Assembly (NCBI GenBank): GCA_035626155.1
Contig: DASPOF010000070.1
Location: 12,619 to 76,618 of the forward strand
Length of the DNA stretch: 64,000 nt
Reading direction: 5' to 3'
Origin: Candidatus Binataceae bacterium
GTDB taxonomy: Bacteria > Desulfobacterota > Binatia > Binatales > Binataceae
The translations under genes were made by a program, and so were the position numbers. Positions 10,415 through 19,517 of this stretch are shown here, piece after piece. The notes below the pieces were generated by a model. That model saw only the letters and a list, made by a program, of their open reading frames with translations, did not search any database and was not told the DNA's origin. The stretch's first letter is position 1. Every line of letters begins with the position of its first letter.

Positions 10415-13400
10415 TCAGCGGGGATGATAATCCTGAAGGGCGCGGACTTCCATGCGCTCGCGCTTGAGAGCCTTGATTCCCTCGACCGCCGCCTGCGCGC
10501 CCGCCATCGTCGTGAAGTACGGCAGCCTGAGCTCCAGAGCGGTTCGCCGGATCGAAAACGAGTCCGCGGTGCCGCTCGCGTCGGGCGTGTTTATCACCAT
10601 CGCGATTTTGCCCTCGCGCATCCGATCGACCACGTGCGGACTGCCCTGCAAGACCTTATTGACCGGCTCGCACGGATGGCCGAGGCCCTCGATGTAACGC
10701 GCGGTGCCACGCGTCGCGATCAAATCAAAGCCCATCGCCGTGAGCCCGTCCACGATCGGGGCAAGCTCGGCCTTGTCTTCATCGCGCACGCTGATGAAGA
10801 CCCGGCCCGCAGCGGGCAGGTCCGAGGATGCGGCCAGCTCCGCCTTGGCGAAGGCCATCGCGAACGACATGTCGATGCCCATGACCTCGCCGGTCGATTT
10901 CATCTCGGGACCGAGAATGGTATCGACCCCCGGGAAGCGCGCGAACGGGAAGACGGATTCCTTGACCGCGAGGTGGACCGGCACGCGCTCGGTGGCGAAG
11001 CCGAGTTCGCGCAGCGTCTTTCCGGTCATGATTAGCGAGGCGAGTTTCGCGAGCGGGACGCCGATTGCTTTGCTCACGAACGGAATCGTGCGCGATGCTC
11101 TCGGGTTCACCTCGAGGATGTAAATCTCGCCGCGATAAATCGCGTACTGGACGTTGATCAGCCCGACGACGCCGAGTTCGCGCGCGAGCATCCGGGTCTG
11201 ATCCGCAAGCCCGCGCTGGATCTCGGGCGTGAGCGTTCGTGGCGGCAGGACGCACGCGCTGTCTCCCGAGTGGATCCCGGCATGTTCCACGTGCTCCATG
11301 ATTCCGCCGATCACGACCGTCTCTCCGTCCGAGATCGCGTCCACATCGACCTCGATCGCGCCGTCGAGATATCGGTCGATCAGCAGCGGATGGCGCTCGG
11401 AGGCTTCGAAAGCCTGCGCGACGTAACGGCGCAGCGCCGACTCGTCGACAATCACTTCCATCGCGCGCCCGCCGAGCACGTAGGAGGGCCGGATGAGAAC
11501 CGGGTAGCCGATTCGCGCCGCTCCCCTGACGGCCTCATCGAGGCTGCGCGCGAGCACCCCTTTGGGCTGCCTGAGACCGAGCTTTTCCACCAGTACGTTG
11601 AAGCGCTCGCGATCCTCGGCGCGATCGATCGCATCGGGACTCGTGCCGAGAATCGCAACGCCGGCCTTCGCGAGCGGCACCGCCAGCTTGAGCGGCGTCT
11701 GCCCTCCGAATTGCACGATCACGCCGAGCGGCTTCTCGCGCTCGGCGATCGCGATGACATCCTCGAACGTGAGCGGCTCGAAGTAGAGGCGGTCCGAGAC
11801 GTCGTAGTCGGTCGAGACGGTTTCGGGATTGCAGTTGACCATGATCGTCTCGAAGCCCGCCTCCTTGAGTGCGAGGCTCGCGTGGACGCAGCAATAGTCG
11901 AACTCGATCCCCTGCCCTATCCGGTTCGGCCCGCCGCCGAGAATCATCACCTTGCGCCGGTCATCGGGCGGTGCTTCGTCCTCGCCTTCGTATGTCGAGT
12001 AGAGATACGGCGTGTACGCCTGGAACTCGGCGCCGCAGGTATCGACTGTCTTGAAGACCGGCATCACGCCCGACTCGCGCCGGCGTGCGGCGATCTCCGG
12101 CTCGTCCGTTCGCCTGAGATCGGCGATTCGCCGATCGGAAAATCCCATCGCCTTGAATTCGCGGAAGTACTCGGCCGAAAGCGGCTCGCTCGCGGCGCGG
12201 CGCTCCGCCTGAACGATTCGCGCGATGCCGTCGATGAACCACGGATCGATCTTCGTGAGTTCGTACGCCTCGGCCTCCGACATCCCCAGGCGCAGCGCGT
12301 CGGCCAGATGGTGCAGTCGGTGGCTGCTCGGCATCGCGATGCGGGCGCGGAGCGCCTCCAGCGCGCGCTCACGGCCCTGCTCTGCAAGCGTGCTCTCCAG
12401 TCCGTAGGAGCCGATCTCAAGCGACCGCAGCGCCTTTTGAAGGGATTCCGTGAACGTGCGGCCGATCGCCATCACCTCGCCCACCGACTTCATCTGCGGG
12501 CCCAGCTCGTCAACGGCGCCACGGAATTTTTCGAACGTGAAGCGCGGAATTTTGGTGACGACGTAATCGATGGTCGGCTCGAAGCAGGCGGGCGTCATCC
12601 TGGTGATGTCGTTGGGGATTTCATCGAGCCGGTAGCCGACGGCGAGACGCGCCGCAATCTTCGCGATCGGGAAGCCGGTCGCCTTCGATGCGAGCGCCGA
12701 GCTGCGCGACACGCGCGGGTTCATCTCGATCACCACCATGCGCCCGGTGCGCGGCTCGATCGCGAACTGGATGTTCGAGCCGCCCGTGTCCACGCCGATT
12801 TCGCGGATGATCCTCTGCGCGGCATCGCGCATGAGCTGATATTCCTTGTCGGTCAGCGTCTGGGCGGGCGCGATCGTGATCGAGTCGCCGGTGTGCACGC
12901 CCATCGGATCGAGGTTCTCGATCGAGCAGACGATCACGACGTTGTCGGCGCAATCGCGCATCACTTCGAGCTCGAATTCCTTCCACCCCTCGATTGATTC
13001 CTCGAGCAGCACTTCGTGGCTTGGCGAGATATCGAGTCCCCATGCGACCCTGGAACGGAATTCGCCCTCGGTGCGCGCGATCGATCCGCCGGTGCCGCCG
13101 AGCGTGCGCGAGGGGCGGATAATCAGCGGCAGGCCGAGCGTTGCGCGAACGCCCTCGGCATCGTCCAATGAGTGCGCGATCGCGGAGCGCGGAACCTCGA
13201 GCCCGATATTGAGCATCGCGCGCTTGAACAGCTCGCGGTCCTCGGCCTTCTTGATCGCGTCGAGCCGCGCGCCGATAAGCTCGCAGCCGTAGCGCTCGAG
13301 CACACCCGACTCGGACAGCTCGATCGCGAGATTGAGCGCAGTCTGCCCGCCAACCGTCGGCAGCAGAGCGCCGGGCCGCTCGCGCTCGATGATTCGGGCG

Positions 13401-13621
13401 ATCGAGCCTGCGGTCATCGGCTCGATATAAGTGCGATCGGCCAGCTCGGGGTCGGTCATAATCGTGGCGGGATTGGAGTTGATCAGGATCAGGCGCAGGC
13501 CTTCCTGGCGAAGCGCCCGAAGCGCCTGCGTGCCTGAGTAATCGAACTCGCACGCCTGGCCGATCACGATCGGTCCCGACCCAATCAGCAGAACTGATTT
13601 GAGATCTTTGCGAAGCGGCAC
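10415..13621 (-). CDS. carB: Carbamoyl-phosphate synthase large subunit.
   Basis: 1068 aa with duplicated ATP-grasp halves (...[23 protein letters not shown]... and ...[23 protein letters not shown]...) and a C-terminal MGS-like domain. Confidence 0.95.
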
Positions 13622-13673
13622 TTCAGATTTCCCGGCACTCCCGGTTCGCGGCCTTACGCCGCGCGCCGGCGAG

Positions 13674-14876
13674 TCAGTTTTTCCTCACCGCCTCCTCGGC
13701 GGCTATGCGTTCGATGGATTCGGCGCCGTAGCGCGGGAATAGCTCCACCATCCGTTTGAATCGCGCGAACAGGTAATTCGAGTCGTGCGGACCGGGCGAT
13801 GCCTCCGGATGGTACTGCACTGAGAAAAAAGGGACGCCGCGCCCGCGCAATCCCTCGACGGTTCGATCGTTCAGATTGAGATGAGATAGGTCGGCCCGCT
13901 CCTTGACCGACTCGGCCTCCACCGCGAAGCCGTGATTCTGCGCGGTGATTTCGACCCGCCCGGTGCGAAGATCCATCACCGGATGATTCGCGCCGTGATG
14001 GCCGAAGTCGAGCTTGTAGGTGCGTCCGCCCAGCGCGAGACCGAGAATCTGGTGGCCGAGGCAAATCCCGAAAATTGGCTTGCGCCCCAGCACTCCCGCA
14101 ACCGCGTTGTACGCATACGGAAGCGCCGCCGGGTCCGCCGGGCCGTTGGAGAGGAAAATGCCGTCGGGCTGGTGCGAGAGGATCTGCTCCGCAGTCGACG
14201 ATGCGGGCAGCACGCGCACTCTGAAGCCGGTCGATACGAGCCGGCGCAATATGTTGAGCTTGATCCCGTAATCCAGCGCGACGACCAACGGCGCATCGCG
14301 AAGTTCGCCGCGCCCGCGACGGGCATAGCCCCGGCCCAACTCCCATCCGCCGATTTCCCAATCGTACGGCTCGGCGCAGGTGACTTCCTTGACGAGATCG
14401 CGTCCAACGAGCCCTGGCGATGCTTTCGCTTTGCGCACCAGCGCGTCGCTGTCGAGGTCGGTGCTGGAGATGACCGCCTCCTGCGCGCCGTGAGTGCGGA
14501 TATGGCGGACCAGCGCGCGTGTGTCGATTCCTTCGATCCCGACGATGCCCGCCTGAGCGAGATATTCCCCCAGCGGCATCTCGGAGCGCCAGTTCGACGG
14601 ACGCTGCCAGCATTCCTTGACGATGAAGCCATCGACGTAGACGCGCCGCGATTCGACGTCCTCGCGGTTCACGCCGACATTTCCGATTTCGGGATACGTC
14701 ATGCAGACGAGCTGGCCCTTGTAGGACGGGTCGGTGAGAATTTCCTGGTATCCGGTCATCGCGGTGTTGAACACGACCTCGCCGACCGTCTCGCCGATCG
14801 CGCCAAAGGCGCGCCCTCGGAAGACGCGCCCATCGGCAAGGGCGAGAATCGCGTCGCGTCGTGCGCCCGTACTCAT
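13674..14876 (-). CDS. carA: Carbamoyl-phosphate synthase small (glutaminase) subunit.
   Basis: ...[21 protein letters not shown]... with the GATase triad region ...GICLGHQ.... Its start overlaps the pyrC stop by 4 nt. Confidence 0.95.
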
Positions 14877-16240
14877 CGCAGTTCACCTCGCCGTCCGTCG
14901 AACACGATCTCACCGCCGACGATGGTCATCACCGCCCTCCCCTTAAGCCGCATCCCCGCGAACGGCGTATTGCGGCTGCGCGACAGGAATCGCTCCGGCT
15001 CCACCGTCCATTCGAGATTCGGGTCAACCACCGTAATGTCCGCGGGCGCTTCCACGGCCAGCGTGCCAGCCTCGAGCCTGAGCAGCGCTGCGGGATTTAC
15101 CGACATGAGTTCGACCAATCGCCCCGCGCCAATCAAACCACAATGCACGAGGCCGAGCGCAAGGCCAAGGGCGGTCTCCAACCCCACGACGCCGTTGGCC
15201 GATTGCGCGAATATCGCCGCGACATCGGGCGCGAGCCGCTCGGCGTCGCGCGCGGGATTGAAGTACCCGGCCAGGGCATCGAGGCGCTTCGATGCGGGGT
15301 CGTGCGGCGCGTGATCGGTCGCAATCATATCGATGCCGCCGTGGCCGATTGCATCGCGGAGCGCATCCACGTCATCGCGGCTTCGAAGCGGCGGGTTCAT
15401 CTTCGCGTTCGGGCCCCATCGCAGCGCCGCGCTCTCATCGAGCGCAAAGTGATGCGGCGTTACTTCGCACGTGACGCGCGCGCCGCGCTTGCGCGCAGCC
15501 GCAACCAACTCGACCGACTCGCGCGTCGAGACATGCGCGATGTGGACCGCGGCTTCGGTTCCGATCGCAAGCGAGAGATCGCGCCTCACCCGCTCCGACT
15601 CGGCAGGCCCACTGTAACCGTGAACGCCGAGGCGCTCGGCGACGGCGCCCGCGTTGACCGCGCCTTCGTCCGAGAGCGAGCGCTCTTCCTCATGGAGTGA
15701 GATCGCGAAGCCCAGTTGGTTGATTTCATCCATCGCGCGCGACAGAACCGCGGCGTCATCTACCGGGATGCCGTCGTCCGAGAACAGGCGCGCCCCCGCC
15801 GCGGCCATCGCGGCATAATCGACCGTCTCGGCTCCGCTAAGCCCTCGCGTTACCGCCGAGACCGGAACCAGCCGCGTGGAGCGCGCCTCAGCGGCGCGTT
15901 CGAGCATGTACCGGGTAATCTCGCGCGTGTCGTTCACGGGCGACGTGTTCGCCATCGCGGCAACGGTGGTAAAGCCGCCCGCCGCTGCGGCGCGCAGGCC
16001 GCTCGCGATGGTCTCCTTCTGGGGGAAGCCCGGATCGCGCAGATGGACGTGCGGATCGATTAGTCCCGGCAGCACCCACCATCCGGTCGCATCGATGACC
16101 GCCGCCCCATCGCCGCCGCGCAGCGACCCGGGGCGATCGACGGCTTCGATCTTTCCGTCGACCACCAGGACATCCGATGCGGCGTCGATTCCTGATGCGG
16201 GATCGACCACGCGGCCGGCCTTCAACAAAAGCGGTCTCAT
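14873..16240 (-). CDS. pyrC: Dihydroorotase.
   Basis: [13 protein letters not shown]...[15 protein letters not shown].... I verified an ATG at 16240 in the sequence, and it makes an ATGA overlap with the pyrB* stop. The upstream extension of the ORF is rejected. Confidence 0.9.
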
Positions 16241-18183
16241 CCCGCATGCTCCGGCGCCTTGAGCGGCTCGACCATCGAGTAAATCGTCGCGCGGTCGTGC
16301 GCCTTGCGCCTGGCATCCGGCGCGGGCGGCTCCAGGCGCACCTGGACGCGCTCGAAGCGGGAGGTCGGGATGTTCTTGCCGACGTAGTTGGCGCGAATCG
16401 GAACGGCGCGATGGCCGCGGTCGATCAGCACCGCGAGCTTGACCGCGGCCGGCCGTCCATGGCGCCAGATGGTCGCCATCGCCCGCTGCACCGTCCATCC
16501 GCTGTTGATCACGTCGTCCACGAGCACGATCGTACGACCCTCGGCATCGAACTTCTCGGCGCCGTCGAGCGGATGAACCGTCTCGGCCGGTCCGTAGATG
16601 TCGACCGCAGCGCTCGGCAGCCGCACGCCGGAGCCCGCCTCGATCAGGTCGCGGATCCGCATCGCCAGTTGCGCGCCGCGACTCACGACGCCCACGATCG
16701 ACACGCCCGCCAAATCCGGCAGGTCCGCGGTAATTTGCGCGGCGAGCGACTCGACCGCGTGCGCAATTTCATCGGCGTCCATGACCTCGCGCTGCGGGCC
16801 GCGCTTGTAAGGCTCGAAGCCGTTCTCCTCGGCCTGTTTGACGTTCTCGAACACGGCAAGCGAGCCTTCATCGATCCACTGGCGGACGTAACCGTAGAGG
16901 CTCTCGTCGTACGCGTAATAGCGATGGGACCGGACGTGCCCGACGAACTCGGCGCGAAGCTCCCGCTCGCAGAAGTCGCATCGGAGCCGAAACTCGGCGC
17001 GCGTGACGGTCGGAGCCAGAGTGAAGCGGGGATGCAGGTAGGCGCCCTCGAAACGCGTGATGCAATTCGAGTTTGCGCATCGAGGGGACGGCTCGGCCTT
17101 GAATCGAATCGCCTCGCCTGTTGGAGCGCGGGGCGAGCGCCGCTCGCCTGCCTGTTCGATCATTCGGGCAATCAGCGCCATCCTGACCGGTACGCCGGCC
17201 GCGGCCTGCTCGAAGTACACGGCGCGCGGGTCGGTGTCGAGTTCGTATGCGAGTTCGCTGGTGCGCGGCAGCGGATGCATGACGACGGCTTCCTGCGTGC
17301 GATGCGTCCTCAGCGCGCGCGCATCGAAGTGGACGTACTCGGCGGGCTTCATTTCCTGGCCCGACAGCCGCTCCTTCTGAAGCCGCGTCACGTAGAACGC
17401 ATCGAGGGCCGCCGGCGGCTCTTTGGTGGGAAGTTTGTCGATTTGGACCTCACCGGTGAACAGCGCCATCTGGTGCGGCGCGCTCGGCGTCAGGTACAGC
17501 GCGTCGAGACCGCCGGCCAGCGACTTGAGTTCATCGATCGTCACGGTCGAAAAGCTGTAGTTGCGCTCCGCGGCCAGGCGCTCGAGCACGTAATCGGGCA
17601 CATCCATCCCGCTGGTCGGGACGGCGACGATGTTCGCGCCGAAGCGCGCGAGCGCATAGATCAGCGAATGCACGGTGCGGCCGAACTTGAGATCGCCGCA
17701 CAGCGCCACCGTCAGTCCCTTGAGCCTGCCCTTCTTGCGGCGCAGCACGTAGAGGTCGCAAAGCGTTTGCGTGGGATGTTCGCGGCTGCCGTCGCCGGCG
17801 TTGATGATCGGGCACGGCGCGTACTCGGCGGCTACGCGCGCGGCGCCGTCGTGCGGATGGCGAAGCACGATCAGGTCGGCGTACCCGGAGACCACGCGGA
17901 CCGTGTCGGCGAGACTTTCTCCCTTGGCGGCGGAGCTGGCCTGCATGTCGGCGGAGCTGATCACCGCGCCGCCCAGCCGATGCATCGCGGACTCGAAGCT
18001 CAGGCGCGTGCGCGTCGATGGTTCGTAGAAGAGCGTCGCCATGATGAGGCCGCTTGCCAGTGAAACACTCTCGCCGCGCCCGAGCGCCTCGGAGAACTGG
18101 TCGGCGAGCGCGAAGATGCGCTCGATTTCGGGGATCGCAAGATCCTCGATCGAGACGATGTCCGATTTTGGAACCCGCGCCAT
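16237..18183 (-). CDS. pyrB: A tri-domain fusion of 648 aa. Residues 1 to about 375 are an aspartate carbamoyltransferase catalytic chain. Next comes a PyrI-type zinc-binding domain (CANSNCIT...CDFCERE). The C-terminus is a PyrR/uracil-PRTase-like domain.
   Basis: N-terminus: ...ATLFYEPSTRTRLSFESAMHRLGG...HPTQTLCDLY.... Middle: PRCANSNCITRFEGAYLHPRFTLAPTVTRAEFRLRCDFCERELRAEF, compared with E. coli PyrI CPNSNCISH...KCKYCEKEF. C-terminus: ...RTIVLVDDVINSGWTVQRAMATI...LIDRGHRAVPIRANYVGKNIPTSRFERVQV..., compared with PyrR ...VILVDDVLYTGRTVRA...[21 protein letters not shown].... It is one uninterrupted ORF in the supplied track. Confidence 0.85.
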   Translation of the reverse strand: MARVPKSDIVSIEDLAIPEIERIFALADQFSEALGRGESVSLASGLIMATLFYEPSTRTRLSFESAMHRLGGAVISSADMQASSAAKGESLADTVRVVSGYADLIVLRHPHDGAARVAAEYAPCPIINAGDGSREHPTQTLCDLYVLRRKKGRLKGLTVALCGDLKFGRTVHSLIYALARFGANIVAVPTSGMDVPDYVLERLAAERNYSFSTVTIDELKSLAGGLDALYLTPSAPHQMALFTGEVQIDKLPTKEPPAALDAFYVTRLQKERLSGQEMKPAEYVHFDARALRTHRTQEAVVMHPLPRTSELAYELDTDPRAVYFEQAAAGVPVRMALIARMIEQAGERRSPRAPTGEAIRFKAEPSPRCANSNCITRFEGAYLHPRFTLAPTVTRAEFRLRCDFCERELRAEFVGHVRSHRYYAYDESLYGYVRQWIDEGSLAVFENVKQAEENGFEPYKRGPQREVMDADEIAHAVESLAAQITADLPDLAGVSIVGVVSRGAQLAMRIRDLIEAGSGVRLPSAAVDIYGPAETVHPLDGAEKFDAEGRTIVLVDDVINSGWTVQRAMATIWRHGRPAAVKLAVLIDRGHRAVPIRANYVGKNIPTSRFERVQVRLEPPAPDARRKAHDRATIYSMVEPLKAPEHAG

Positions 18184-18218
18184 CTCAGTTTTCCGCGCTT
18201 ATACGACGCGCATCCTGG

Positions 18219-18761
18219 TTACTTGCCGTTTCCGATCACGACCCCGTCGGCGCCGTCGAGCTCCGTAAGACGGACGTAAACGCGCCGGCCCTGCGGAGCG
18301 GCGACGTTCTTGCCCACGAAATCCGCGCGAATAGGGAGTTGATGCTCGCCGCGATCGACGAGCACCGCCAGCTCGATCGACGCTGCACGCCCGAGGTCCG
18401 AGAGCGCATCGAGCGCCGCCCGCACCGTGCGCCCCGTGTAAAGCACGTCGTCCACCAGCACGACGCGCTTGCCGTCGAGAGAAAACGGGATATTGCGCGC
18501 GAGCAGGCGGGGATCGCCAGGCGCGCCTTTGCCGTCGTCGCGGTAGGAGGAGATGTCGAGGGTGCCGACCAACACCGAGCGTTTCTGGTTGGCGCCAAGC
18601 TCGGCGGCAATTCGCTCCGCCAGGTACGCGCCGCGGCGGATTATCCCGACCAGGACGAGGTTTTCGATGCCGCCGTTGCGCTCCGCGATCTCGTGCGCGA
18701 TACGCTTCACGGTGCGCCCCACCTGCGCTGCGTCGAGCGCCACCTCCGGTTTCGCGTTCAT
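18219..18761 (-). CDS. pyrR: Bifunctional pyrimidine operon regulator and uracil phosphoribosyltransferase PyrR (canonical, stand-alone copy).
   Basis: MNAKPEVALDAAQVGRTVKRIAHEIAERNGGIENLVLVGIIRRGAYLAERIA...VVLVDDVLYTGRTVRAALDAL...LVDRGEHQLPIRADFVGKN.... I chose the start at MNAKP, which aligns with the B. subtilis PyrR N-terminus. The ORF extends to 18815 through the terminator. Confidence 0.85.
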   Translation of the reverse strand: MNAKPEVALDAAQVGRTVKRIAHEIAERNGGIENLVLVGIIRRGAYLAERIAAELGANQKRSVLVGTLDISSYRDDGKGAPGDPRLLARNIPFSLDGKRVVLVDDVLYTGRTVRAALDALSDLGRAASIELAVLVDRGEHQLPIRADFVGKNVAAPQGRRVYVRLTELDGADGVVIGNGK

Positions 18762-18771
18762 GATTTGGGCG

Positions 18772-18804
18772 AAAAAAAACCCCGACCGCCGAAGCAGCCG
18801 GAGT
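18772..18804 (-). terminator. Intrinsic terminator, or a PyrR-type transcription attenuator, immediately 5' of pyrR.
   Basis: Minus-strand RNA reads CCGGCUGC-UUCG-GCGGUCGG-GG-UUUUUUUU. This is an 8-bp stem with two G-U pairs and a UUCG tetraloop, then a U8 run ending 10 nt before the pyrR AUG. A further hairpin CCGUCACGGGAUGACGG lies upstream in the leader. Confidence 0.5.
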
Positions 18805-18920
18805 CCGTTATGCAAAAGTCCATTGTTCCAACCTTTCCGTCATCCCGTGACGGATTAAAGGTTAATTATTTTTTACCGGCCGGGCCGGACCCGGTCAAGC
18901 GGGGCCGCGGGCGGCGGCCG

Positions 18921-19517
18921 TCAGCCGCGGGCTTTGCGTTCGAGCTTGCGCAGGCGCTGGCCGTGATCGCGCGTCTCGACCGTGATGCGATCATCGAAGC
19001 GGTCGAACTTGCGCGCGAGGTTCTGGACCGCCTTGTTGGTCTTGCCGATCTCGGCGCCGAGCTTCTTTGCGGCAAGCTCGGCGGCGGAAGCGATTTCGCG
19101 CTTGAGGGACTGGGCGGTTTCGGCGGCTGCCTCGCGATCGGCCATTGAGGTTCGCAGCGCGGCTTCCTGAGCGGCTGCCGGCGCCGGCTCGCGCGCATGC
19201 TCGCGCACCGAGGCATCGATTGCGCCCATCTGTTCGCGAAACTCGACGCGCGTCTTGCCAAGCGCCTCGCCCAGCCGCACCATCTCCGCGCTCAAATCGG
19301 CGCGCAGAGCGGCGATGCCCATGCGATTCTCGGCGATCTGGTCCGAGAGAAACCGTATCTGGCTTCCGACCTCGGCGAATTGACCGAACAGCTCCTCGCG
19401 CAGCGAGTCGAGCCTCCCGCCGAAACCGGAAACCGCCTCGACCACCAGCTCGAAGCGCGCGCCGAGTTCCTCGAGCAGCGTGCCGAGCCTTGCCACACCG
19501 TCTTCAGCCACCGCCAT
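18921..19517 (-). CDS. Hypothetical coiled-coil protein.
   Basis: A 198-aa Ala/Glu/Arg-rich heptad-like sequence with no catalytic motifs. Confidence 0.45.
   Translation of the reverse strand: MAVAEDGVARLGTLLEELGARFELVVEAVSGFGGRLDSLREELFGQFAEVGSQIRFLSDQIAENRMGIAALRADLSAEMVRLGEALGKTRVEFREQMGAIDASVREHAREPAPAAAQEAALRTSMADREAAAETAQSLKREIASAAELAAKKLGAEIGKTNKAVQNLARKFDRFDDRITVETRDHGQRLRKLERKARG

What the first reader, a model, noticed from the sequence alone, without database searches (positions are those of the whole stretch)
18219..18830. A second, stand-alone pyrR with an attenuator-type terminator abutting its start codon
A canonical PyrR of about 180 aa lies directly upstream of the fusion gene, in operon order pyrR-pyrB*-pyrC-carA-carB. 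Ten nucleotides before its AUG there is a textbook intrinsic terminator: an 8-bp stem, a UUCG tetraloop and U8. This is the layout of PyrR-controlled attenuators, where PyrR+UMP binding to an upstream anti-antiterminator hairpin lets the terminator form. A candidate binding hairpin, CCGUCACGGGAUGACGG, lies about 45 nt upstream. The genome therefore encodes two PyrR-type domains. One is presumably the RNA-binding regulator. The other is recruited into the enzyme.
Basis: partly seen in the sequence, partly recalled or inferred. Interest (0 to 1): 0.5.

Follow-up and report, generated by a model that had tools for sequence, protein, structure and literature searches.

The report
PyrR attenuator with translated leader ORF
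The pyrimidine operon of this uncultured Binatia bacterium starts with a real pyrR gene and a real PyrR-binding hairpin plus terminator, but the switch appears to use a translated 21-codon leader instead of the Bacillus antiterminator, as was proposed for Thermus in 1997.

Summary
pyrR (18761-18219, minus strand, 180 aa) is a bona fide PyrR. A 13-bp hairpin with a UUCG loop and U8 ends 10 nt before its AUG.

In 13 of 16 distinct Binatia leaders the terminator's 5' arm makes no pairs with the box. In four Bacillus controls it pairs with 7-9 box nucleotides and dissolves the box.

Every leader instead carries a small ORF:
- Its Shine-Dalgarno sequence is the 3' arm of the PyrR box.
- Its AUG lies 5-8 nt downstream of that.
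- It encloses the terminator.
- Its UGA overlaps the pyrR start codon (AUGA in 15 of 16).

Thermus and Meiothermus leaders fetched here have the same layout.

Best explanation: PyrR bound to the box blocks leader translation, so the terminator forms. Without PyrR, the leading ribosome masks the terminator and then reinitiates on pyrR. This is a new member of a known but little-documented kind. All leaders tested fall below Rfam's PyrR threshold. Interest is moderate to low.

The parts
18870..18898 (-). Putative sigma-70 promoter: -35 TTGACC (18898-18893), 17-nt spacer, -10 TAAAAA (18875-18870). The inferred transcription start is about 18864-18862, 1-3 nt before the PyrR box.
   Evidence: Read. 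The -35 TTGAC (L001: TTGCG) sits 35-37 nt before the box in the 15 Binatia leaders with enough upstream DNA, followed by a TAnAAT-like -10. The start site is inferred, not mapped.
18831..18862 (-). PyrR binding loop (box). Lower stem ACCUU/AAGGU, bulge UAA, upper stem UCCGUCA/UGACGGA, loop CGGGA. The 3' arm GGAAAGGU (18838-18831) doubles as the Shine-Dalgarno sequence of the leader ORF.
   Evidence: Rfam RF00515 at 34.8 bits, E = 0.02. Covariation in 16 leaders. Own covariance model R1 scores 53.2 bits here and finds no other site in the window. Aligns column for column with the Thermus and Meiothermus boxes.
18758..18823 (-). Leader ORF of 21 codons (MDFCITDSGCFGGRGFFSPKS). Its AUG lies 8 nt after the SD. 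It encloses the terminator, and its UGA (18760-18758) overlaps the pyrR AUG as AUGA.
   Evidence: The same ORF layout is present in 16 of 16 Binatia leaders (21-41 codons) and in Thermus and Meiothermus. No gene is called there in any public contig.
18772..18806 (-). Intrinsic terminator: 13-bp stem (18806-18794 with 18789-18777), UUCG loop, U8 (18779-18772).
   Evidence: Conserved with compensatory and one-sided changes in relatives.
18219..18761 (-). pyrR, 180 aa. PRPP motif VLVDDVLYTGRT. No Shine-Dalgarno sequence of its own (upstream is UUUUCGCCCAAAUC).
16237..18183 (-). Next gene of the operon: PyrB (ATCase), PyrI-type zinc domain and PyrR-like PRTase domain fused, 648 aa.
   Evidence: Conserved at 645-651 aa in 8 distinct relatives.
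10415..16498 (-). Rest of the operon: pyrC (longest ORF 16498-14873; the real start is probably near 16240, as in relatives where pyrC overlaps the fusion's stop), carA (14876-13674), carB (13621-10415).

Best explanation
This is a PyrR-dependent attenuator of the Thermus type, in which a ribosome rather than an antiterminator hairpin opposes the terminator.

1. Transcription starts 1-3 nt before the PyrR box.
2. The box's 3' arm is the Shine-Dalgarno sequence of a 21-codon leader ORF whose AUG lies 8 nt further on. The terminator's 5' arm starts 17 nt after that AUG.
3. When pyrimidine nucleotides are abundant, PyrR-UMP/UTP clamps the box. The 30S subunit cannot load, the leader stays untranslated, the terminator hairpin forms, and RNA polymerase stops at the U8 tract about 10 nt before pyrR.
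4. When PyrR is free, a ribosome initiates on the leader and follows the polymerase. It covers the 5' arm of the terminator, so the hairpin cannot form and transcription continues into pyrR, the pyrB fusion, pyrC, carA and carB.
5. The ribosome terminates at a UGA that overlaps the pyrR AUG (AUGA) and reinitiates. pyrR has no SD of its own, so its translation also depends on leader translation.

**Shown:** the sequence elements, their conservation and covariation, the absence of an antiterminator, and the conserved frame and stop/start overlap.

**Inferred:** the transcription start, PyrR binding, translation of the leader, and the direction and size of the effect.
For: - **PyrR.** Above the NCBIfam cutoff, with R19, H22, R27, R146 and K152 kept.
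- **Box.** Full-length sub-threshold Rfam match. 6 of 7 upper-stem pairs are compensatory in 16 leaders, with 0 of 500 shuffles reaching the observed score.
- **Promoter.** -35 TTGAC (L001: TTGCG) 35-37 nt before the box in the 15 Binatia leaders with enough upstream DNA.
- **Leader ORF.** In 16 of 16 leaders an AUG lies 5-8 nt after AAGG. The ORF spans the terminator and its UGA overlaps the pyrR start. The exception is L170, where the UGA overlaps an in-frame GUG.
- **Frame.** Distances from leader AUG to pyrR AUG are 62, 65, 80, 89, 98, 110 and 122 nt, all equal to 2 mod 3. The post-terminator spacers differ in sequence and range from 10 to 70 nt. By my own calculation the chance of this is (1/3)^6, about 0.0014.
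- **Independence of box and terminator.** They form together in 14 of 16 full-leader MFE folds, and they are the only helices in the RNAalifold consensus.
- **Closest relatives.** Thermus L173 and Meiothermus L175 have the same layout, and Meiothermus also has the AUGA overlap.
- **No own SD for pyrR.** Seen in the short-leader type.
Against: - There are no expression data. The transcription start and leader translation are inferred.
- The geometry is tight. Only about 50 nt separate the leader AUG from the end of the U tract, so a ribosome must load very quickly or the polymerase must pause.
- The window's box loop has 5 nt (CGGGA) instead of the usual 6 (CNGNGA), and its PyrR has His at the position of B. 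subtilis R141. Binding strength is therefore unknown.
- The box hairpin sequesters the SD even without PyrR.
- The 16 leaders are related, so part of the ORF conservation is inherited.
- The Thermus mechanism is itself a 1997 proposal, recalled from memory. The paper could not be retrieved.
Confidence: 0.68

Rival explanations
1. Classical Bacillus-type switch. The box is an anti-antiterminator. Without PyrR its 3' half pairs with the terminator's 5' arm to form an antiterminator.
For: The box and terminator lie in the right order, and Rfam's Bacillus-derived model aligns end to end. Three of 16 leaders (L161, L165, L171) show 4-6 nt of weak pairing between the box and the terminator arm.
Against: In 13 of 16 leaders no terminator-arm nucleotide pairs with the box, and the box keeps 10-11 pairs. 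In 4 of 4 Bacillus controls, 7-9 nt pair with the box and the box dissolves. RNAalifold finds no third conserved helix. The full-leader MFE holds box and terminator together in 14 of 16 leaders. The model does not explain the conserved leader ORF.
Confidence: 0.05
2. Translational control only. PyrR blocks leader translation and so blocks the coupled translation of pyrR. The terminator is a constitutive, leaky dampener that the ribosome does not influence.
For: The SD lies inside the box, the AUGA overlap is conserved, and pyrR has no SD of its own. Box-at-RBS control without a terminator is suggested in other loci: 16 'direct' and 20 'leader ORF without terminator' in a rough classification. 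It is reported for mycobacteria (from memory: Fields and Switzer 2007).
Against: The terminator always lies inside the leader ORF, close to its start, in every Binatia, Thermus and Meiothermus leader. That placement is pointless if ribosomes do not affect it. A strong U8 terminator (-20 kcal/mol) ahead of a five-gene biosynthetic operon needs some relief mechanism.
Confidence: 0.17
3. E. coli pyrBI-like UTP sensing. Coupling between the polymerase and the leader ribosome is set by UTP-dependent pausing, and PyrR plays a minor or no role at this site.
For: The leader ORF encloses the terminator, as in pyrBI (established knowledge). There is a UUUU at 18817-18814 between the AUG and the terminator.
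Against: The U-rich stretch is not conserved in relatives. By contrast the PyrR box is invariant in its key positions and covaries, and a PyrR gene is the first gene controlled.
Confidence: 0.06
4. No regulation. The hairpin plus U8 is simply the terminator of the upstream 198-aa gene, and the box-like hairpin is fortuitous.
For: The terminator lies about 115-150 nt (18806-18772) after that gene's stop at 18921. The loose terminator scan is not above chance.
Against: A conserved promoter lies between that stop and the terminator. Box, ORF and terminator keep a fixed geometry in 16 leaders and in Deinococcus-Thermus species that have different upstream genes.
Confidence: 0.02

Closest known systems
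Thermus strain ZO5 pyr operon leader (Van de Casteele et al. 1997, J Bacteriol 179:3470; recalled from memory, paper not retrievable). The layout was checked here on the Thermus L173 and Meiothermus L175 sequences.
   Same: The PyrR box is followed after 7 nt by the AUG of a leader ORF that encloses the terminator and ends at or inside the pyrR start. There is no antiterminator. pyrR is the first gene and is followed by pyrB and pyrC. The boxes align column for column.
   Different: The phylum differs (Binatia, not Deinococcota). The leader is shorter (21 codons against 28-34) and the AUG-to-terminator distance is shorter (17 nt against about 36). There is an exact AUGA overlap, as in Meiothermus, whereas the Thermus leader stops 8 nt inside pyrR. 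The window's loop has 5 nt. The downstream pyrB is a fusion with a PyrR-like domain.
Bacillus subtilis pyr attenuators / Rfam RF00515 PyrR binding site
   Same: Same regulator family, same box architecture (CCUUUAA bulge, CNGNGA-type loop, AAGG) and a downstream intrinsic terminator.
   Different: No antiterminator. One site instead of three. The score is below the family threshold: 34.8 bits here and 40-47 in relatives, against 54. The SD of a leader ORF is embedded in the box.
Mycobacterium smegmatis PyrR translational repression (Fields and Switzer 2007, from memory)
   Same: PyrR binding occludes a ribosome-binding site.
   Different: There the occluded site belongs to pyrR itself and no terminator is involved. 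Here it belongs to a leader ORF 62 nt upstream, and a terminator lies inside that ORF.
Escherichia coli pyrBI leader-peptide attenuator (established knowledge)
   Same: A leader ORF encloses the terminator, and the leading ribosome prevents hairpin formation.
   Different: The signal in E. coli is UTP-dependent polymerase pausing with no RNA-binding protein. Here a PyrR box gates ribosome loading.

Membership tests
PyrR protein (NCBIfam NF003549 / PRK05205) | Whole-protein HMM score above the curated cutoff | tested here: met
   208.5 bits against a cutoff of 138. 47-58% identity to solved PyrR structures.
PyrR protein (NCBIfam NF003549 / PRK05205) | PRPP-binding loop and the basic residues implicated in RNA binding in B. 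subtilis (T18, R19, H22, R27, R141, R146, K152; the list is from memory of Savacool and Switzer 2002) | tested here: inconclusive
   VLVDDVLYTGRT is present. R19, H22, R27, R146 and K152 are kept, T18 is K and R141 is H. The fusion domain has E, S, A, D at positions 18, 19, 22 and 27.
PyrR protein (NCBIfam NF003549 / PRK05205) | UMP/UTP-dependent binding to pyr leader RNA | not testable with these tools
   Needs purified protein and RNA.
Rfam RF00515 PyrR binding site (Bacillus-type attenuator) | Covariance-model score at or above the gathering threshold (54 bits) | tested here: not met
   34.8 bits and no hit at the gathering threshold in the whole window. Relatives score 40-47 bits. The Bacillus control gives three sites at 54.7-68.3 bits.
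Rfam RF00515 PyrR binding site (Bacillus-type attenuator) | Box hairpin with the UUUAA bulge, a CNGNGA-type loop and AAGG closing strand | tested here: met
   The window has a 5-nt loop variant, CGGGA.
Rfam RF00515 PyrR binding site (Bacillus-type attenuator) | An antiterminator that pairs the 3' half of the box with the terminator's 5' arm (mutually exclusive structures) | tested here: not met
   0 nt paired to the box in 13 of 16 leaders, against 7-9 nt in 4 of 4 Bacillus controls. No consensus third helix.
Thermus-type PyrR / leader-peptide attenuator | The PyrR box contains or abuts the SD of a leader ORF | tested here: met
   The AAGG of the box lies 5-8 nt before the leader AUG in 16 of 16 Binatia leaders, and 7 nt before it in Thermus and Meiothermus.
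Thermus-type PyrR / leader-peptide attenuator | The terminator lies inside the leader ORF and there is no antiterminator | tested here: met
Thermus-type PyrR / leader-peptide attenuator | The leader ORF ends at or overlaps the pyrR start | tested here: met
   AUGA in 15 of 16 leaders and GUGA in L170. AUGA in Meiothermus. In Thermus the stop lies 8 nt inside pyrR.
Thermus-type PyrR / leader-peptide attenuator | Pyrimidine-dependent, translation-dependent read-through | not testable with these tools
   Needs reporter or transcript assays.
Mycobacterial-type PyrR translational repression | The box overlaps the ribosome-binding site of pyrR itself, with no terminator | tested here: not met
   The box ends 70 nt before the pyrR AUG and a U8 terminator lies between them.

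The most novel reading that the evidence does not exclude
Ribosome-gated PyrR attenuators may be a widespread and largely unannotated class outside the Firmicutes, rather than a Thermus curiosity. In this class the PyrR box serves as the SD of a leader ORF that encloses the terminator and is translationally coupled to pyrR. In Binatia one PyrR binding event would then shut down both transcription of the operon and translation of pyrR. In a rough classification of 98 boxes from other phyla, 24 had a leader ORF with a terminator and 20 a leader ORF without one. None of the Binatia or Deinococcus-Thermus leaders tested reaches Rfam's threshold.
Probability: 0.45. Interest if true: 0.45.

Novelty: new member of a known kind. 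Interest (0 to 1): 0.35.

Why it matters
The locus gives the 1997 Thermus proposal strong comparative support: ribosome-mediated anti-termination gated by an RNA-binding protein. The support is a leader ORF whose frame, start spacing and stop/start overlap survive large changes in sequence and length in a second phylum. The result also shows that the standard Rfam PyrR model, built on Bacillus-type sites, misses these leaders. pyr regulation in many uncultured phyla is therefore probably under-annotated. For this genome it assigns roles to the two PyrR-type domains. The stand-alone protein is the likely RNA-binding regulator. The domain fused to ATCase has lost the N-terminal RNA-contact residues and is more likely a nucleotide-sensing module.

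Tried and rejected
- **Antiterminator search.** I ran MFE folds, folds truncated before the terminator's 3' arm, constrained folds and RNAalifold. No conserved alternative pairing emerged. Short complementarities between the box's 5' arm and the stretch before the terminator (UCCGU/ACGGA in the window, GCUA/UAGC in others) are only 4-5 bp, do not reach the terminator core, and are absent in L165.\n- **Upstream TTG start at 18815.** Rejected; it is not conserved.\n- **More PyrR boxes in the window.** None found (next-best score 7.6 bits).\n- **Terminator belonging to the upstream gene.** Rejected because of the conserved promoter in between.\n- **Literature.** The Thermus ZO5 paper, the Turnbough and Switzer review and Bonner et al. 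2001 are not held. Searches returned only descriptions of the B. subtilis mechanism.\n- **Collection scans.** The genome and metagenome scans returned mostly PyrR from other phyla, because one search pattern (VDDVLYTG) is universal. They yielded only 6 Binatia loci. The remaining Binatia loci came from exact-protein look-ups.\n- **First ORF/terminator scan.** It used ungapped stems and missed bulged terminators. It was replaced by a fold-based test. That later classification of other phyla has no chance control and is only indicative.

Full report
**What is there**

On the minus strand, the ORF from ATG 18761 to the stop at 18219 encodes a 180-aa protein. It scores 208.5 bits against NCBIfam NF003549 'PyrR' (cutoff 138), and the profile begins at residue 5 from this ATG. 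It is 47-58% identical to solved PyrR structures. The identical protein is on record from a metagenome-assembled genome, and close relatives are labelled Candidatus Binatus or Binataceae.

Downstream lie a 648-aa fusion (ATCase, PyrI zinc domain, PyrR-like PRTase), then pyrC, carA (14876-13674) and carB. Upstream lie lepA, lepB and a 198-aa protein with no family match. This gene order is conserved in relatives.

**The leader in the window**

- The upstream gene stops at 18921.
- TTGACC (18898-18893), a 17-nt spacer and TAAAAA (18875-18870) form a promoter-like site.
- The PyrR box hairpin spans 18862-18831.
- A 13-bp terminator with a UUCG loop spans 18806-18777, with U8 at 18779-18772. Ten nt later comes the pyrR AUG.
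- Rfam's PyrR model aligns over all 115 positions at 34.8 bits (E = 0.02), below its threshold of 54. Nothing in the window reaches any Rfam threshold.
- The terminator is exceptional for this 64.7% G+C window, which has only 16 runs of six or more T in 128 kb of both strands.

An ATG at 18823 opens a 21-codon ORF (MDFCITDSGCFGGRGFFSPKS). It runs through the terminator and ends in a TGA at 18760-18758, which overlaps the pyrR ATG as ATGA. Its AUG lies 8 nt after GGAAAGG, the 3' arm of the PyrR box.

**Comparative evidence**

I collected 16 distinct Binatia leaders whose PyrR is 68-88% identical to the window's.

- Promoter: the -35 TTGAC (L001: TTGCG) lies 35-37 nt before the box in the 15 leaders with enough upstream DNA, followed by a TAnAAT-like -10.
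- Box: CCUUUAA and AAGG are invariant. Six of seven upper-stem pairs carry compensatory changes.
- Box and terminator together: 91.5% of cells pair, against 37-53% with slid partners, and no shuffle out of 500 reaches the observed covariation score.
- Leader ORF: in 16 of 16 leaders an AUG lies 5-8 nt after AAGG, the ORF (21-41 codons) encloses the terminator, and its UGA overlaps the pyrR start. The overlap is AUGA in 15. In L170 the UGA overlaps an in-frame GUG.
- Frame: the segment between the terminator and pyrR varies from 10 to 70 nt and is unrelated in sequence between lineages. Even so, the AUG-to-AUG distances (62, 65, 80, 89, 98, 110, 122) all equal 2 mod 3. By my arithmetic the chance of this is about (1/3)^6.
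- pyrR start: eight relatives have an in-frame stop and no start codon upstream of the pyrR ATG. ATG 18761 is therefore the start, not TTG 18815.

**No antiterminator**

- The full-leader MFE holds box and terminator together in 14 of 16 leaders.
- RNAalifold finds only those two helices.
- I also folded each leader up to the terminator loop. Four Bacillus controls pair 7-9 nt of the terminator's 5' arm with the box and dissolve the box. In 13 of 16 Binatia leaders no arm nucleotide pairs with the box, and the box keeps 10-11 pairs.

**Closest known system**

From memory, Van de Casteele et al. (1997) proposed for Thermus ZO5 that pyr attenuation uses no antiterminator, and that a translating ribosome prevents terminator formation instead. 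The paper could not be retrieved, so I fetched Thermus and Meiothermus loci.

Both have a box, an AUG 7 nt after it, and a leader ORF of 28 or 34 codons enclosing the terminator. The Meiothermus leader ends in AUGA on the pyrR start. The Thermus leader stops 8 nt inside pyrR. Their boxes align column for column with the Binatia boxes.

**Mechanism**

Shown steps are the sequence anatomy and its conservation. The rest is inferred.

1. PyrR with UMP/UTP bound to the box hides the leader's SD.
2. The untranslated leader folds its terminator, and transcription stops before pyrR.
3. Without PyrR, the first ribosome covers the terminator's 5' arm, which starts 17 nt after the AUG. Transcription then reads through.
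4. The ribosome reinitiates at the AUGA on pyrR, which lacks an SD of its own.

The main rival keeps the SD occlusion and coupling but denies that ribosomes affect termination. I rate it at 0.17.

**The two PyrR-type domains**

The positions below are those reported as important for RNA binding in B. subtilis (list recalled from memory).

| B. subtilis residue | Stand-alone PyrR | Fusion domain |
|---|---|---|
| T18 | K | E |
| R19 | R | S |
| H22 | H | A |
| R27 | R | D |
| R141 | H | R |
| R146 | R | R |
| K152 | K | K |

**Scope**

A covariance model of the box (R1) finds one site in the window at 53.2 bits, and the next best scores 7.6 bits. No Binatia or Deinococcus-Thermus leader tested reaches Rfam's threshold; the best score is 46.9 bits. 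A Bacillus control yields three sites above it.

R1 finds 98 boxes upstream of pyrR in loci from other phyla. A rough classification, made without a chance control, gives:
- 16 with the box at the pyrR start;
- 24 with a leader ORF plus terminator;
- 20 with a leader ORF without terminator;
- 36 with a terminator but no such ORF;
- 2 with neither.

**Verdict**

The element is a PyrR attenuator, but of the Thermus leader-ORF type rather than the Bacillus type. It is a new member of a known kind, of moderate to low interest.

Noticed in passing
window 16237-18183 (-); L161, L163, L165-L168, L170, L172: The PyrB, PyrI-zinc-domain and PyrR-like PRTase fusion (645-651 aa) is conserved next to pyrR in 8 distinct Binatia relatives. 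Its PRTase domain scores 128.8 bits against the PyrR model, just under the cutoff of 138. It has acidic or neutral residues at the N-terminal RNA-contact positions.
   Followed up: partly
L169 3778-5488; L171 3593-5133: In L169 the ATCase (316 aa) and a PRTase-domain protein (252 aa) are called as two adjacent genes instead of one fusion. In L171 the region is broken into several short genes. These could be unfused variants, frameshifts or assembly errors.
   Followed up: no
WIN, L081, L001 versus the other 13 Binatia leaders: The three leaders with a 5-nt box loop (CGGGA or CGAGA) all encode a PyrR with His at the position of B. subtilis R141. Twelve of the 13 with the 6-nt loop (CUGNGA) have Arg there. 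This may be protein-RNA co-variation, or a single shared ancestry event.
   Followed up: partly
L003-L160 (PyrR loci of other phyla): Leader ORFs that start just after the PyrR box and end in a stop/start overlap with pyrR (ATGA, GTGATG, GTAATG) recur in Omnitrophota, Vicinamibacterales and other Acidobacteria-type contigs, among others. About half of them have no detectable terminator. 16 loci have the box directly at the pyrR start. No chance control was run.
   Followed up: partly
L165, L083, L175 and window 18771-18865: Rfam RF00515 scores the Binatia and Meiothermus leaders at 35-47 bits, below its gathering score of 54. Routine annotation would therefore not report these PyrR sites.
   Followed up: yes
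window 18921-19517 (-): A 198-aa protein with no Pfam or NCBIfam match lies between lepB and the pyr promoter. It is conserved in that position (185-212 aa) in every Binatia relative with enough upstream sequence.
   Followed up: no
window 18184-18218 (-): The 35-nt spacer between pyrR and the fusion gene holds a small GCGCG...CGCGC hairpin with no U tract and no PyrR box. Unlike Bacillus, there is no second attenuator before pyrB.
   Followed up: partly
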